From positions 96,472,001 to 96,536,000 of the forward strand of contig OX597814.1 of assembly GCA_951406725.2 (NCBI GenBank): 64,000 nucleotides of DNA. Reading direction: 5' to 3'. The notes beneath the pieces are model-generated. The model did not search any database and was not told where the DNA came from. It saw nothing but the letters and a program-made list of their open reading frames with translations. The position numbers were made by a program, and so were the translations under genes. Position 1 is the first letter of the stretch, and each line of letters begins with the position of its first letter. The DNA is from Octopus vulgaris. Its lineage: Eukaryota. Below, one piece after another: positions 768-15,446 of this stretch.

Positions 768-1533
768 TATTAAAGTGTTCGTGTATATGATTAGACTATT
801 TATGAATGCACTGTAGTGTTTCGTTAGCTTTTACTGTAGTGGAGCATAAAAAAAAAATCTAATCTAAGTGTGACATCTAGCAAATAAATTAGTCTTGACT
901 GTCCTTCACTGTAGTAGAAAAACTGGGTTGCTTTAAAAATTTTGATGAAATTCTTAAGGATGTTGATTTGAACTTGTTGACAGTCGCTTTCATCTGTGTT
1001 GCAAAATAAAGATAAAAATTGATCATTCAGCAAAAATTATCACTCCACCCAAGCTTTCAGAGTCAAATTTATTACGTCTGTCAAATCTCTACCACTCTAC
1101 CTTGAACTTCGATGCCATCACAGAAAATTCCACCCACTTGCCGAAACATCCTACATTATCTCTTCCTTTTAAAATTATTCCTTCACTCATTCATTTATTG
1201 CATAAAAGGTTAAGTCCAAGAAATGCTCTTATATTTCATTGTTTGAATAATCCTTTCTCTCGAAAAACTTCGAAGCCACTACAAATAAAATCTCTAAGTG
1301 TATATATATAGAGAGAGAGCATAATTAAATCTCAGAATGAGATTGAAACAGTAATCACTCGATAATGTAAAGTATAGAAGCCATCTTATCATGGCTAACC
1401 ACATTGGGGAGGGGGTGTTACTGTAGCTTTATAGCCCCAAGAGATCGTCGTCTCTAGCTGGCTTTAGACACAATATCAGTGCCTTGGAGTATTTGCAAAG
1501 GGAGGCCATCCTTCCTCGCAAGCCTGAGTGATA

Positions 1534-1576
1534 CGCTCGAACTAGTTTCGGGATTTTTGTCCCTTGTCAACGGGCG
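1534..1576 (-). ncRNA. Type I hammerhead ribozyme, U3-A8 core variant
   Basis: reverse complement: cgcccg TTGACAA ggga-caaaaa-tccc GAAA ctag TT cgagcg; stem I 5 of 6 bp, stem II 4 bp, palindromic stem III ACUAGU. Confidence 0.7.
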
Positions 1577-1891
1577 GTAACCACCAGGTCGCGATGAAAG
1601 TGAAGGCTGCTTTGCAAATATATAAGTTTTTCTAGTGGCGTCTGCCACTGATGTCGAAAAACTAACAGTAAGCATAATTAAATCTCAGAATGAGATTGAA
1701 ACAGTAATCTCTCGATAATGTAGAAGCCATCTTATCATGGCTAACCACATTGGGGAGGGGGTGTTACTGTAGGTTTATTCTGAGATTTAATTATGCTTAC
1801 TGTTAGTTTTTCGACATCAGTGGCAGACGCCACTAGAAAAACTTATATATTTGCAAAGCAGTCTTCACTTTCATCGCGACCTGGTGGTTAC

Positions 1892-1934
1892 CGCCCATTG
1901 ACAAGGGACAAAAATCCCGAAACTAGTTCGAGCG
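1892..1934 (+). ncRNA. Type I hammerhead ribozyme, U3-A8 core variant (inverted-arm copy)
   Basis: cgccca TTGACAA ggga-caaaaa-tccc GAAA ctag TT cgagcg. Confidence 0.65.
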
Positions 1935-2112
1935 TATCACTCAGGCTTGCGAGGAAGGGATGGCCTCCCTTTGCAAATACTCCAAGACATTGATATTGTG
2001 TCTAAAGCCAGCTAGAGACGACGATCTTTGGGGCTATAAAGCTACAGTAACACCCCCTCCCCAATGTGGTTAGCCATGATAAGATGGCTTCTATACTTTA
2101 TATATATATATA

Positions 2113-9016: not shown

Positions 9017-9902
9017 CAGTAATCACTCGCTATATCGCGGTTCACCTATCGCGTCCTCAGTACATCACGGATTTTTCTGGCTAATACATGCAAATTTATA
9101 TCGCGGATTCCTCAGTATATCGCAGGTTTCTGCGGCCAATAGGCACTTATATATATTTTTTTAGATCTTAATTATTTTTCGTTGGTAAAATAAGCATTTT
9201 CACGCCTAAAAATTAATAAACTAATAAATATAAATACAGTACAGTACAGTACTGCACTGTATATCACATTGATTAGAATATATTAAAAGAAAAACGTAGT
9301 GTGCCGCAGGGGAGTAAACAAAGAATCGCACATACTGTATGGAAAACAAAACTCGGAAGGGGAGCGGGTGGTGTTGTTTTGCATTTGTGTGTAAAATCGT
9401 CAATTTATTTCAAGCCCAACGATGTCGCCCAAACGCTGTGCACCTTCTAAGGCTTCTGACAGTGAACCCAAGCGCCAGAGGAAGATGCTTACTATAGTAG
9501 AAAAGGTGAGACTCCTCGACATGTTTAAGAAAGAGAGAAAGTATGCTGATGTAGGCCGCCAAAAGAACTTCAGAGATTGGTGGGAGATTAGGACCCCCCA
9601 GATTATTCGTACGTTGCAGTTCAGAAATGCAATCGGTGGAGACATGGAAGTTTATAAAATCCTTCTTACACAGCAGCTGGCTATCACAACGTTCCTCAGC
9701 CGCTAAAAAAAAAGACATGGGGGTCTCCGAAGAGTGTGGGGAGAGTTTATAAAAGCTTAAATATACAAAAATAATAAAATAAGTATATATAGATTATAAA
9801 AATAAATAAATAAAATATACATTACATTACTGTTTCTACTTCGCAGTTTTCATGTATCGCAGAGTGTTTTGGAAAGTGACACCCGCAATAGTCAAGGGAT
9901 AA

Positions 9903-9905
<3 letters not shown>
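9017..9905 (+). mobile_element. Tigger/pogo-like internally deleted DNA transposon
   Basis: ends cagtaatcactcgctatatcgcgg and cccgcaatagtcaagggataactg-TA; MSPKR...KRQRKMLTIVEKVRLLDM is a CENP-B-type HTH N-terminus. Confidence 0.85.
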
Positions 9906-9951
<46 letters not shown>

Positions 9952-10163
9952 CAATAATAAATCTCTGAACGAGATGTAAACAGTAACTGCACGACAATGT
10001 GAGGTATACTAGCCATCTCAATATAGCTAACCACTAAGGGCAGGTGTTACTATAGCTTGTAGCCCCAGGAGGACAGCGTCTCCAGCTGACTTTAGGCACA
10101 CTTTCTGTGCCCTTATGGTATTTGCAAAGGGAGGTCATCCCTCCATCGTCAACCTAAGTGATA

Positions 10164-10207
10164 CGCACGGACTGCAGTTCTAGGTATTGATCTGTCGTCG
10201 GCGCACG
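10164..10207 (-). ncRNA. Degenerate type I hammerhead (CCGACGA core, one A lost from GAAA)
   Basis: reverse complement: cgtgcg CCGACGA cagatcaataccta GAA ctgcag TC cgtgcg. Confidence 0.5.
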
Positions 10208-10528
10208 ACAATCACCGGTTTTCGATGAAGGGAGTCCCAATGCAAATCCTTATAATGTTTTTCCAGTAACTTTTCGTCACTGATCTCCAAAAGCCAGCTG
10301 GAGACGATGTTCTCCTGGGGCTACAAGCTATAGTAACACCCACCCTTAGTGGTTAGCCATATTGAGGTGGCTAGTATACCTCACATTGTCGTGCAGTTAC
10401 TGTTTACATCTCGTTCCGAGATTTATTATTACTTGCGTACAGTTTTTCGAGATCAGTGACGAAAAGTTACTGGAAAAACGTTATAAGGATTTGCATTGGG
10501 ACTCCCTTCATCGAAAACCGGTGATTGT

Positions 10529-10573
10529 CGTACGCCGACGACAGGTCAATACCTAGAAACTGCAGTCCGTGCG
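10529..10573 (+). ncRNA. Type I hammerhead, C4 variant
   Basis: cgtacg CCGACGA c-aggt-caat-acct-a GAAA ctgcag TC cgtgcg; stem I 6 bp, palindromic stem III ACUGCAGU, GUC site. Confidence 0.65.
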
Positions 10574-10616
10574 TATCACTTAGGTTGACGATGGAGGGAT
10601 GACCTCCCTTTGCAAA

Positions 10617-10720
10617 TGCCTTACCCTAAGTAAGGCATGTGTAAAATTTGTGTAGTTCTCAAGTTTTAGGGAAACACACAGACAGACAGACACACATTCT
10701 CAGTTTTATATATATAAAGA
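10617..10720 (-). mobile_element. 5' fragment of the non-autonomous Helitron family seen at 14325
   Basis: reverse complement tctttatatatataaaactgag...gtttccctaaaacttgagaactacac matches 14325-14430. Confidence 0.7.
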
Positions 10721-10810
10721 TATATATATATATTAATACATATAAAGGCTTACTATAATTATTTAGGCTTAAACGGGGACGACTGACAAATTATAGATAT
10801 CATAACTATA

Positions 10811-12985
10811 GGGGTGCTATGTCTTTTGGTCCGACGTCACTTCGTCAAACGTCTTTTCGTCCATGTCTTTTGGTCCGACGTCTTTTTGAGCGAGGATTTT
10901 TTTTCCAACGGCTTCTTGTCCAATTTTAAATAAACTCTTTAGAAAACAAAGTGAAGTATCTCTAATGATATATTCACAAAGCTATAACGAGCCTCGCTAT
11001 AGGACTGTTATTATCGTTCTTTTTAACAGTTTTACTTTCTCTTTTTCCTCCTCTCTCTTAAGTATGGTGCTGTGTATAGAGAGTGCTGCAAATTTAGTGA
11101 ACACATTTTTAATTTGCCCATCCCGAAACGACAAAGTTCATAGTATCGATTAAAAGCAAAAGAAATGTAGTTGATGAAAGTTATTGCATTTACGATTTTC
11201 ATTCAAGCAATACAAACCCAGGAGAAGAATACTGAAGATGTGAGAAAAGAAGGCTGTGTGCAGTGCAAATTCACACGGCAACGGAAAACAATGAGCCGAA
11301 AATTATTTATTTTTCTAGTGAGTACCTTCATCCAGTTGATGTAGATTCGTTAAATGCAAGAAAAGTAGTTGCAGAAGTAAAGCATGAAGCGATAGAAAAC
11401 ATAGTAACAAGTTCGCGTAGCATAATAGCAGCTAAGTTTACGCAGCTAATAAAAAATACCTGCCCTCAACTTCCTCGTTTGCCTGTACTTTCAAGGACTA
11501 TTCAAAGGTGCCGAAAACAATTATTGATTTCCCGCTAATTCGGGAGCCAGAATTTGTTTTGAAATTACTGAAGAAAATTGTATAACTTGATAACGGTGAA
11601 CAGTTTCTGAGATACGATTCGGGTAAGGAGTATCATCAGCGCATATTAGTATTTGCATCAGAAAGTGCTCTTTAGGATATAGCACCCTATCGTCATTGTG
11701 CATGTGATGAAACGTTCAAAATTGTGCCAGAACAGTAGTTTCAACTGTTTAGCATTCATGTACAAGTTAATGGTAGCAGTTTTCCACGGGTCTTTGCATT
11801 ATTTCTGAATAAAACAAAGCAGACATACAAATTATTTTTCGTGCAACTGAAAATTATGCAACCTATGGCATATCCGCTCGATCTCGTGGCAGGGCGAGCT
11901 GGCAGACACGTTAGCACGCCGGGCAAAATGCTTAGCGATATTTCGTCAGCCGTTACGTTCTGAGTTCAAATTCCGCCGAGGTCGACTTTGCCTTTCATCC
12001 TTTCGGGCTCGATAAATTAAGTACCAGTTACGCACTGGGGTCGATCTAATCGACCTAATCCCTTTGTCTCTCCTTGTATGTCTCCTCTATGTTTAGCCCA
12101 TTGTGGGCAATAAAGGAATAAGATTTCCAAGTTGCAGTTCATAGGACATTTAATTTATCATTCCCTAATTCATCTGTTGGAAATGTTTGTTTCATTTGAG
12201 TCCATTTGTTTTTCGAAAAATTACAGATTTAGGCATTAAAGAAACAAACAATAAAAACTCTGAATTCTGTCTTAAAATTCGATGTTTTTCAGAATTAGCC
12301 TTCCTACACGTTGAAAATGTCGTAGACGCCTATGAAGAATTAATAGACGATGAAGAAATACCTGCTGAATTCATCGCTTACTTCGACTGGTCTTATAAAG
12401 TCGTTGTGAGAGGACGTGTTGCTAGACGAAGGAGAGAACCACTTACATTCCCGATATCTGTATGGAATCAGCGTATTCTTCAAGCTGTTCTTAGAACAAA
12501 TAATATTGCGGAGGGGTTTTCATTCTGCGATAAAGCGTTCGGCGGGTGGAGCGCATTTGAATATTTGGAAATTAATCAAAACTTTGAAGGAAGAAGAAAG
12601 TGAAATGACTCAAATTCTTCGAGAAGATTCGTCAAATTCATGTACACGATATCGAAGAATGCCTCAAAAGATTGGTCATTGAATATGGGTCAGCAAGAAA
12701 AATTGAGTGTAGCATATAATTTGCATCAATTTTAAGTGATCATATCATTAGTTACATCTTATTACTTTTTAAAAATGTCTTCTTTTTAAATACATTTTTC
12801 CACAGTATTTTACTTGAATAATATGAATAAAATCCCCAGTGATTATTTGATTTGATGTTCACCTTGTTTTCTAAAGAGTTTTTTTTTAATTGGACAAGAA
12901 GTCGTTGGACAAAAAAAGACGTCGAACCAAAAGACGTGGACGAAGTGACGTTGGACAAAGTGACATCGGGCGAAAAGTGGGGTCA
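10811..12985 (+). mobile_element. Decayed Mutator-like (MULE) DNA transposon
   Basis: subterminal repeats gtcttttggtccgacgtc, inverted as gacgtcgaaccaaaagac; FLYWCH-like remnant near 11230-11280; CDETFKIVP..FQLFSIH and CLFHL motifs; SINE A at 11888-12120. Confidence 0.85.
11888..12120 (+). mobile_element. SINE family A inserted in the MULE
   Basis: ggcgagctggcagacacgttagcacgccgggc...gagttcaaattccgccgaggtcgactttgcc. Confidence 0.85.
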
Positions 12986-14071: not shown

Positions 14072-14324
14072 TATATATATATATATACATAGAATACAAC
14101 TATTCCCCCTCGTGTTAAAAAAATAATTTTTGTTGAGACTTCGATATTTTTTCAATCTACAGAGAAAGTTGTTATACTTTTATGTCTACGACGTATGTTT
14201 ACGTGTATACATACAGAAATTTAACGCATGTTTAACCCTTTCTCAGTATTTTTCATATATATATATATAAATATAAGTATCTTGTTTCATATTTATGTAT
14301 ATACTATATATATATATATATACA

Positions 14325-15414
14325 TCTTTATATATATAAAACTGAGTACGTGTGTCTGTCTGTCTGTCTGTTTCCCTAAAACTTGAGAACTACACAACCA
14401 ATTTCATTCAAATTTTACGCATGCCTTACTTAGGGTCCGGGGAGTGTCATCGGCAAAAAAATTTTGAACTTTTTGCCTAGGGCGAGCCCACAGCAATATC
14501 ATATCTTCTCCACTACGATTCCCTAAAACTTGAGAACTACACAACCAATTCCATTCAAATTTTACACATGCCTTACTTAGGGTCCATGTAGTTTCATGGG
14601 CAAAAAAATGTTCAACTTCTTGCCTAGAGCGAGCCCATAGCAATATCATATCTTCTCCACTATTTCAGTATTACGTGTTAAAAGTGAAACAAAAACGTTT
14701 CTCTATTTTATGTCAGATACTTTCACTTTAACAATAAAAATAATAATAATAATAATTGAATTATATGTAGTAAGTAATAATTAAAATCAAACTAAAGTAT
14801 AATATAATCGTAACATAACAAAAGTAAAAATAGCAATTGGTATAAATTGCATCAATGATTTGAATTTGAATAAGTGGTTTCACATGAATGGGAATAAATT
14901 AAAAATAAAATTAGCGTGCAGAAATGGAATAGTCCAGATGGATAATCGAGAAAAATTAAATTGCGCCAGACTTCACGGTCCATCATAAAGACTATTGTCT
15001 GTATCCCTGGAGATTACATCAGGGTAAGTATACAATAAATTAGAGAAAAAAGAAGATTTAGAGAAAAAGAAGACACACATGGAGGAAAGCACCTTCGAAA
15101 AGTGTCTTGGTGCGACTATGAAAGGTATCTAATCAGAGGCGGTAAATTCGCCACAATAGAAGTAAGGTTCGAATCAACGGAGCGTGCAAGGGAGTACTCG
15201 ACTCGAACTTGCAAAGTGGAAATATTTTATTTTACCTTTATATCTGGGACGTAGGACGTCCTGCACTAGCGATATCAAGATATAACTTTGTGTTTTGTAT
15301 TTTATGTGTAGATGTATATATATATAGATGTACATGTAATATGTACACATATATATATACACATATATACATGCACTAGCACTATGACCCGGCAACGACG
15401 GGTCTTTAATGCTA

Positions 15415-15415
<1 letters not shown>
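14325..15415 (+). mobile_element. Non-autonomous Helitron-like element
   Basis: A^TC 5' end; 3' hairpin gacccg-gcaacga-cgggtc (15386-15404) followed by CTAG^T; internal ~146-bp tandem duplication (about 14371-14660). Confidence 0.75.

Positions 15416-15446
<31 letters not shown>

What the first reader, a model, noticed from the sequence alone, without database searches (positions are those of the whole stretch)
9949..10617. Inverted arm reads through a head-to-tail junction that the forward arm lacks
Seen: the forward arm is one unit (9949-10290). The inverted arm starts mid-unit (reverse complement of about 10075-10090), runs to the unit start (tattattacttgc, about 10435) and continues into the reverse complement of the unit end (gagatcagtgacgaaaag...). 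A local DNA fold-back cannot generate this permutation. Inference: the template was circular or multimeric, copied with a strand switch similar to the inverted pLTR structures of Penelope.
Basis: partly seen in the sequence, partly recalled or inferred. Interest (0 to 1): 0.8.

Follow-up and report, generated by a model that had tools for sequence, protein, structure and literature searches.

The report
Penelope-pasted hammerhead retrozyme copy
This is one copy of an abundant 353-base non-coding repeat with a hammerhead ribozyme motif and two fixed ends; it was likely pasted in by a Penelope-type jumping-gene enzyme from an RNA longer than one unit, a known kind of element, and whether that RNA was a circle is untested.

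Summary
In detail: the mirror arm (10287-10623) crosses a 9-base head-to-tail junction that the other arm lacks. It is one copy of an abundant, protein-free 353-base repeat with a minimal type I hammerhead (a non-LTR retrozyme).

Copies are not randomly permuted. Of 137 outer ends, 130 fall at two positions about 47 bases apart, the Penelope 'tail'. Inner ends vary. In 40 of 41 intact two-armed insertions one arm ends at each position. Six other copies share this window's layout. Target duplications and TA-repeat targets match Penelope insertions, and the genome holds intact Penelope-like elements with the same long/short ends; the exact partner was not found.

The template was longer than one unit and continuous across the ribozyme site. 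Uncut read-through RNA fits slightly better than a circle, but neither is shown. The two arms are best read as two separately primed cDNAs, not a strand switch. This copy's odd right end is probably a later deletion.

The scan reported similar retrozymes in other genomes before, and in this genome a Tx1 LINE that targets them. New member of a known kind; interest 0.35.

The parts
9906..9949 (.). (TA)n tract at the left end: the preferred target of this family
   Evidence: 33 of 90 mapped insertions have a microsatellite at an end
9949..10292 (-). Arm 1: unit positions 344 to 1 in RNA sense, ending at the family's long ('tailed') fixed 3' end at 9949
   Evidence: 61 of 137 outer ends map to unit 340-9
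9949..9995 (-). About 47-base 'tail': the stretch between the two fixed 3' ends
   Evidence: 69 of 137 outer ends map to unit 44-56; tail defined as the span between two RT start sites in PMC11167929
10157..10216 (-). Hammerhead motif of arm 1; it has lost one base of the GAAA core, so it is predicted to be dead
   Evidence: alignment A1
10287..10292 (.). Head-to-head joint of the two arms, with a few bases that fit either arm
   Evidence: overlap of 2 or more bases at 23 of 46 joints, no chance control run
10287..10623 (+). Arm 2 (mirror arm): unit 148 to 1, spacer, unit 344 to about 170 in RNA sense
10435..10443 (+). 9-base spacer, the head-to-tail junction of the 353-base unit
10452..10470 (+). 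Promoter-like motif starting ATCAGT, 58 bases before the inferred transcription start at 10510 (unit 278); inferred snRNA-type promoter
   Evidence: same hexamer (one with a single change) 59-60 bases before 6 of 6 U2 starts with native upstream DNA; a Tx1-like LINE inserts at this start and at U2 starts
10520..10580 (+). Minimal type I hammerhead motif of arm 2; predicted cut after 10567; palindromic stem III (dimer type); this subfamily has C at core position 4 and a C-A mismatch at the base of stem II
10616..10638 (.). Right-hand junction: 9-base inverted repeat around a 5-base loop, read as a templated end-joining scar of a deletion
   Evidence: sequence; interpretation inferred
10623..10721 (+). 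Last 100 bases of an unrelated repeat that is about 1.2 kb long elsewhere; its left part is missing here
1321..2103 (.). Copy of a younger sister subfamily (about 75% identical): 1.3 units plus a mirror arm that also crosses the junction and ends at the short fixed end

Best explanation
The stretch is one insertion of an abundant protein-free 353-base repeat with a hammerhead motif and two fixed 3' ends, likely copied into a TA tract by a borrowed Penelope-type reverse transcriptase/GIY-YIG endonuclease that likely primed two cDNAs, one from each cut strand, on an RNA longer than one unit. Steps. (1, inferred) A tandem copy is transcribed from an snRNA-type promoter just inside the unit (start near unit 278) and reads through into the next unit. 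(2, inferred) The enzyme cuts both strands of AT-rich DNA, leaving a short target duplication. (3, ends shown, priming inferred) One strand is primed at the long start site (unit 1), the other at the short one (unit 48). (4, shown) Each arm runs a variable distance, often past the ribozyme site and the head-to-tail junction. (5, inferred) The two cDNA ends are joined head-to-head. Here arm 1 stopped at unit 344 and arm 2 ran through the junction to unit 148. (6, inferred) A later deletion removed the outer 120 bases of arm 2 and the left part of a neighbouring repeat. For the template I put uncut linear read-through RNA at about 50%, a ribozyme-made circle at about 35% and template jumping at about 15%; more than one may operate.
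For: Family: 3606 first-look candidates, 40 scored; 482 exact matches to a ribozyme pattern against 0 for the control. No coding capacity: longest stop-free frame 68 codons; 0 of 42 single-arm 5' flanks match Penelope proteins. Fixed ends: 130 of 137. Pairing: 40 long/short, 1 short/short, 0 long/long; 20 of 21 in the two sets whose query did not contain the tail, p=1e-5. Target duplications of 6 or more bases in 33 of 57 non-microsatellite insertions against 14% in shuffled flank pairs. One event here: both arms carry 197A (3 of 83 loci) and 104A (6 of 95), and disagree at 0 of 24 subfamily-diagnostic sites. Intact RT+GIY-YIG elements in the same genome show the same long/short ends and mirror arms. 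Template uncut or closed at the ribozyme site: 2 of 138 inner ends lie at the cut, 3.9 expected; 15 of 39 arms in the least biased set run past it. Hammerhead structure: 91.5% of cells paired, double changes at the 3-8 core pair and in stem II. Literature: tail, partial tandems and inverted 5' copies (PMC8557442, PMC3846280, passages); two RT start sites, both strands cut and extended, predicted dimer, uncut RNA as main substrate (PMC11167929, parts 1-2 of 4).
Against: No autonomous partner was found: the unit profile matched no terminal repeat of the 60 GIY-YIG stretches scanned, only separate neighbouring copies, and the 3' ends do not align with the two intact families (p 0.5-0.9). The tail is about 47 bases, against 30-40 in print. 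This copy has no target duplication and its right end (unit 166-170) is not a fixed end; the deletion is inferred, and no intact allele was seen. Seven of 137 ends are off the two sites. Some insertions join different subfamilies (L139, L140, L145, L029, L041), which one template molecule cannot give. Loci are the best-scoring matches to my queries, not a random sample. Transcription, cleavage and the promoter are untested; the window's subfamily has two non-canonical ribozyme positions.
Confidence: 0.72

Rival explanations
1. Rolling-circle version: same element and enzyme, but the template is a 353-base circle cut out by two hammerheads and closed by a host ligase.
For: Arms pass the cut site and the junction freely; linkage between variants is as strong across the junction as within a unit (0.55 vs 0.54); arms of 2.1-2.8 units exist; the ribozyme is conserved with compensatory changes; the RNA strand folds well as a circle (z -3.8 to -6.5); circles are shown for coral, mussel and axolotl retrozymes (PMC7229834, passages and Discussion) and were proposed for Penelope elements (PMC4209133, parts 1-2 of 4).
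Against: Second-turn arms end near the inferred transcription start in 7 of 14 cases (p=0.02; first turn 7 of 25, p=0.28; chosen after looking), which a circle would not remember. Mixed-subfamily tandems. The one 10-unit array shows shared variants in alternating units, as expected from later unequal exchange. Uncut RNA was the main substrate for a Penelope enzyme in vitro (PMC11167929).
Confidence: 0.3
2. Single cDNA with a strand switch or self-priming fold-back, as the first reader suggested and as proposed for Penelope inversions with palindromic joints.
For: Arms of one insertion usually share a haplotype (0.68 against 0.25); PMC3846280 proposes self-priming on an antisense template (passages).
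Against: A fold-back copies the arm just made, so it cannot add the spacer or a junction that arm 1 lacks; the two inner ends are at unrelated unit positions in most joints; it does not explain why the second arm ends at the other fixed site.
Confidence: 0.1
3. Two independent insertions, the second landing at the end of the first.
For: Arms differ by 4%; no shared target duplication around this copy; Penelope enzymes can cut their own AT-rich ends (PMC11167929); mixed-subfamily insertions exist.
Against: Shared rare variants; 4% is within the range for arms of one insertion (mean 4.9%); strict long/short pairing and one target duplication around both arms in most other two-armed copies outside microsatellites.
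Confidence: 0.07
4. The repeat is only the broken tail end of an ordinary autonomous Penelope element, not a self-contained family.
For: Earlier scan notes reached this verdict for other repeats (e1-7908855, e1-8019636); Penelope insertions are mostly 5'-truncated.
Against: The unit closes on itself through the same spacer in dozens of loci and in a 10-unit array; no 5' flank runs into Penelope coding sequence (0 of 42); several subfamilies keep the 353-355-base period.
Confidence: 0.04

Closest known systems
Animal non-LTR retrozymes (Cervera and de la Pena 2020, PMC7229834, passages and Discussion read; Li, Clavereau and Pollet 2026, 10.64898/2026.07.22.740005, parts 1-3 of 5 read)
   Same: Non-coding unit of about 350 bases with a type I hammerhead, from single copies to tandem arrays; Penelope elements in the same genome; proposed mobilisation by Penelope enzymes.
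   Different: The parts I read do not describe a tail, mirror arms or paired long/short ends for retrozymes; most copies here are dispersed 0.5-2-unit insertions; no sequence link to an autonomous terminal repeat was found; cleavage and circles are untested here.
Endonuclease-positive Penelope-like element insertions (PMC8557442, PMC3846280, passages; PMC11167929, parts 1-2 of 4; PMC4209133, parts 1-2 of 4)
   Same: Partial tandems, inverted 5'-truncated copy, tail at one end only, AT-rich and microsatellite targets, target duplications, minimal hammerhead with palindromic stem III and the U3-A8 core variant.
   Different: No RT/GIY-YIG frame; tail about 47 rather than 30-40 bases; because the unit is so short, either arm can cross a unit junction.
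Non-autonomous Chlamys elements such as MRC1 (PMC8557442, passage)
   Same: Non-autonomous Penelope-type families with multicopy head-to-tail insertions.
   Different: Those resemble their autonomous partner at the 3' end; here no such partner was found, and the unit has a hammerhead.
Newt satellite 2 (snRNA-type promoter cited in PMC2220036, passage; the primary paper was not read)
   Same: Hammerhead repeat of similar size with an internal snRNA-type promoter (inferred here).
   Different: Satellite 2 is a tandem satellite with shown transcription; here the promoter rests on a shared motif and a LINE target site.
L1 twin priming (recalled, no call)
   Same: Two primed cDNAs give an inverted 5' segment.
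   Different: In L1 the second primer lands at a variable internal site and the arms do not overlap; here both start sites are fixed and the arms overlap in unit coordinates.

Membership tests
Non-LTR retrozyme | Type I hammerhead in the unit | tested here: met
   Minimal type I motif with compensatory changes; Rfam gathering scan found nothing in the window
Non-LTR retrozyme | Small unit (about 150-400 bases) found in tandem | tested here: met
   353 bases; dimers, a 2.8-mer and a 10-mer
Non-LTR retrozyme | No protein coding | tested here: met
   Longest stop-free frame 68 codons; no Penelope protein match in 42 flanks
Non-LTR retrozyme | Transcribed | tested here: inconclusive
   Family sequence is in contigs of 4 runs only guessed to be RNA
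Non-LTR retrozyme | Self-cleavage and circular RNA | not testable with these tools
   Needs in vitro transcription and RNase R or northern tests
Penelope-type insertion footprint | Fixed 3' ends with an optional tail, variable 5' ends | tested here: met
   130 of 137 outer ends at two sites about 47 bases apart
Penelope-type insertion footprint | Partial tandem plus inverted 5'-truncated copy | tested here: met
   48 of 89 insertions have two arms; 46 arms cross the junction
Penelope-type insertion footprint | AT-rich or microsatellite target and target duplication | tested here: met
   33 of 90 in microsatellites; duplications in 33 of the other 57, control 14%; none visible at this copy
Autonomous Penelope-like element | RT plus GIY-YIG reading frame | tested here: not met
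   Absent from the unit; present elsewhere in the genome
Non-autonomous derivative of a named Penelope family | Terminal sequence shared with an autonomous partner | tested here: inconclusive
   No link in 60 stretches around GIY-YIG matches; only 150 of 6136 candidates were scored

The most novel reading that the evidence does not exclude
This family is a natural read-out of how Penelope enzymes make inverted insertions: a dimeric enzyme primes both strands of one cut, one strand always at the long start site and the other always at the short one, on one or two RNA molecules. The tail and the mirror arm are then one event, and the retrozyme spreads from uncut read-through RNA of its own snRNA-type promoter without needing a circle.
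Probability: 0.45. Interest if true: 0.58.

Novelty: new member of a known kind. Interest (0 to 1): 0.35.

Why it matters
How Penelope-like elements make their tandem-plus-inverted insertions is still open, and the link between retrozymes and Penelope enzymes rests mainly on co-occurrence and terminal similarity. This family gives footprint evidence for that link and a sharp rule (one long and one short end per two-armed insertion) that can be tested in the existing in vitro system. It also shows that a junction-crossing arm alone is not evidence for a circular RNA. The window's copy itself is an old, damaged member of the family.

Tried and rejected
Rfam scan of the window: no hit. Random permutation of starts: rejected. 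Pile-up of inner ends at the ribozyme cut: none. Break in linkage at the junction: none; linkage across the ribozyme cut was somewhat lower at 45-230 bases, but the sites are unevenly spread and I draw nothing from it. Partner search: no link to the two intact Penelope families or to 18 further GIY-YIG stretches; unit-like matches near L109, L128 and L197 are separate insertions. Sequencing runs: no RNA holder listed on record; contigs of four guessed RNA runs carry the family but cannot show level, strand, ends or circles; three further runs gave no intact allele of this locus, and one contig spans the right junction with only 27 bases on one side, below the tool's bar. I first read L070 and L088 as a transduced LINE-plus-unit chimera, which would have proved a linear template; one search showed they are ordinary copies interrupted later by a site-specific LINE, so that argument was dropped and counts were redone. 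The 10-unit array as a one-step rolling-circle product: not supported. Rows dropped: duplicate loci, and L068 and L144, which my clustering failed to place; arms under 28 bases; an older neighbour in L017. Pfam found no significant family for the short frame at 9422-9562. Paper searches for twin priming in Penelope elements and for a tail or inverted footprint in retrozymes listed no paper with that subject; supplements were not read (for example the life-cycle figure of PMC7229834 and the bioRxiv supplements) and may bear on this.

Full report
Observation. The structure is as described. Window 9949-10292 is unit 1-344; 10287-10434 is the reverse complement of unit 148 to 1; a 9-base spacer follows; 10444-10623 is the reverse complement of unit 344 to 166. 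The spacer is missing from the forward arm but joins tandem units in many other copies, so the unit is 353 bases and the mirror arm crosses a real head-to-tail junction. The arms differ at 13 of 311 sites, which excludes a read artefact.

The family. A search of the own genome gave 3606 first-look candidates, of which 40 were scored. Four queries gave 92 distinct loci; 90 could be mapped, and they are 89 insertions once two loci were recognised as the ends of one. These are best matches, not a random sample. The unit has no reading frame over 68 codons, and none of 42 single-arm 5' flanks matches Penelope proteins. A sister subfamily about 75% identical and 95-98% alike within itself has the same build; one copy lies at window 1321-2103.

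Ribozyme. The strand opposite to the forward arm carries a minimal type I hammerhead: long stem I, core, short stem II, GAAA and a palindromic stem III. A pattern for it matches 482 places against 0 for the control. Of the first 100 listed I count by eye 59 with C3-G8, 37 with U3-A8 (10 of them from one array) and 4 mismatched. On ten aligned copies 91.5% of cells pair, with double changes at the 3-8 pair and in stem II; relatedness inflates such counts. Minimal hammerheads with palindromic stem III and the U3-A8 variant are described for Penelope elements (PMC4209133, parts 1-2 of 4). In the window, arm 2 keeps the motif (predicted cut after 10567) with C at position 4 and a C-A mismatch at the base of stem II; arm 1 has lost a base of GAAA. 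Activity is untested.

Ends. Of 137 outer ends, 61 lie at unit 340-9, 69 at 44-56 and 7 elsewhere. Inner ends are spread over the unit. The two fixed ends define a tail of about 47 bases, the Penelope hallmark (PMC8557442, PMC3846280, passages), shown in vitro to be the span between two RT start sites (PMC11167929, parts 1-2 of 4). Among 41 two-armed insertions with both ends intact, 40 pair a long with a short end, one has two short ends and none two long ends; in the two sets whose query lacked the tail it is 20 of 21, p=1e-5. Targets are microsatellites in 33 of 90 cases; 33 of the other 57 have a duplication of 6 or more bases, against 14% for shuffled flank pairs. Intact RT+GIY-YIG elements in the genome (781-codon frames, 99-100% identical terminal repeats) show the same long and short ends on direct and mirror arms. 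I found no sequence link between them and the unit, so the partner is unknown.

One event. Both arms of the window's copy carry two rare variants (3 of 83 and 6 of 95 loci) and agree at all 24 diagnostic sites. Family-wide, a minor allele is shared by the mirror arm in 68% of cases against 25% between loci, and by the tandem neighbour in 81% against 31%. A few insertions join clearly different subfamilies (L139, L140, L145, L029, L041), so not every insertion comes from one homogeneous template.

Template. Forty-six arms cross the junction, from either fixed end, and six other insertions have the window's layout. Inner ends are not enriched at the ribozyme cut (2 of 138, 3.9 expected), and 15 of 39 arms in the least biased set run past it. 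The template is therefore longer than one unit and continuous at the cut: uncut read-through RNA or a circle. A lead on where the RNA starts came from a Tx1-like LINE: 19 of the 30 best copies of its 3' end sit directly before unit 281, and 5 at the start of U2 sequence (U2 confirmed by Rfam). The hexamer ATCAGT lies 57-58 bases before that point in the unit and, once with a single change, 59-60 bases before 6 of 6 U2 starts with native upstream DNA. I infer an snRNA-type promoter with a start near unit 278. Earlier scan notes gave this reading, and one is reported for newt satellite 2 (PMC2220036, passage). Arms end near this start in 7 of 25 first turns (p=0.28) and 7 of 14 second turns (p=0.02). 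This was chosen after looking and is weak, but it leans to linear templates. For circles: equal linkage across the junction, arms of up to 2.8 units and precedent (PMC7229834, passages and Discussion). The 10-unit array on C4 has shared variants in alternating units and looks expanded after insertion. Run contigs cannot decide.

This copy's right end. Arm 2 should end at unit 48 but stops near 170. It abuts the last 100 bases of another repeat that is about 1.2 kb long elsewhere, and the missing part is not to the left of the element. The joint is a 9-base inverted repeat around 5 bases. I read this as a later deletion repaired with a short templated patch; no intact allele was seen.

Mechanism. 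Most likely a borrowed Penelope enzyme cut both strands in the TA tract and primed one cDNA from each, one at the long and one at the short start site, on a more-than-unit RNA; the two cDNAs were then joined head-to-head. The purified anole enzyme cuts and extends both strands, starts at two sites, is predicted to be a dimer and mainly uses uncut RNA, though it showed no strand difference in start site (PMC11167929). The ends, pairing and read-through are shown here; the enzyme, promoter, priming and deletion are inferred.

Known or new. It works like, and meets the testable marks of, an animal non-LTR retrozyme, proposed to be a non-autonomous Penelope derivative (10.64898/2026.07.22.740005, parts 1-3 of 5). 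More-than-unit copying from circles was proposed in 2014 (PMC4209133). The scan noted similar elements in other genomes. What I did not find listed in three paper searches is the strict long/short pairing as evidence for two-strand priming; supplements were not read. Verdict: real, new member of a known kind, interest 0.35.

Noticed in passing
L215 and L216; L237-L266: A 5.5-kb two-frame LINE (zinc knuckle; endonuclease, RT, zf-RVT) inserts at one site of this repeat with a duplication of about 16-20 bases, in several subfamilies; 19 of the 30 best copies are at that site and 5 at U2 starts. Tx1-clade targeting of other transposons and U2 is known (PMC4494074, passages); earlier scan notes already describe this target.
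   Followed up: partly
G000:C4:13620759-13624377 (L163): 10-unit array, units 0-4 differences apart, starting at the short fixed end, with a U3-A8 core and a canonical G-C at the base of stem II; a candidate source locus for its subfamily.
   Followed up: partly
L032, L040, L047: Three insertions with different flanks have their inversion joint at the same unit coordinates (176/189): a hot spot, unexplained.
   Followed up: no
L138, L142, L143, L147, L157: Five second-turn arms from the short end stop at unit 231-237, inside stem II of the ribozyme: possibly an RT pause site.
   Followed up: no
L121-L128: Two young autonomous Penelope-like families with intact or long frames, tails of about 30 and 37 bases and different hammerhead-like cores read by eye.
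   Followed up: partly
L304 (G000:C23:42841600-42844600): A 50-base piece of the unit (positions 230-277) is expanded into a minisatellite of about 16 copies between the two arms.
   Followed up: no
window 14322-15445 (minus strand): Long copy of the repeat whose last 100 bases flank the finding; internal 145-base tandem and a microsatellite near its end; class not determined.
   Followed up: partly
window 9017-9905 and 10800-11800: Decayed DNA-transposon-like stretches on both sides; the likeness to Tigger on the left and to Mutator on the right is recalled, and Pfam did not confirm the left one.
   Followed up: no
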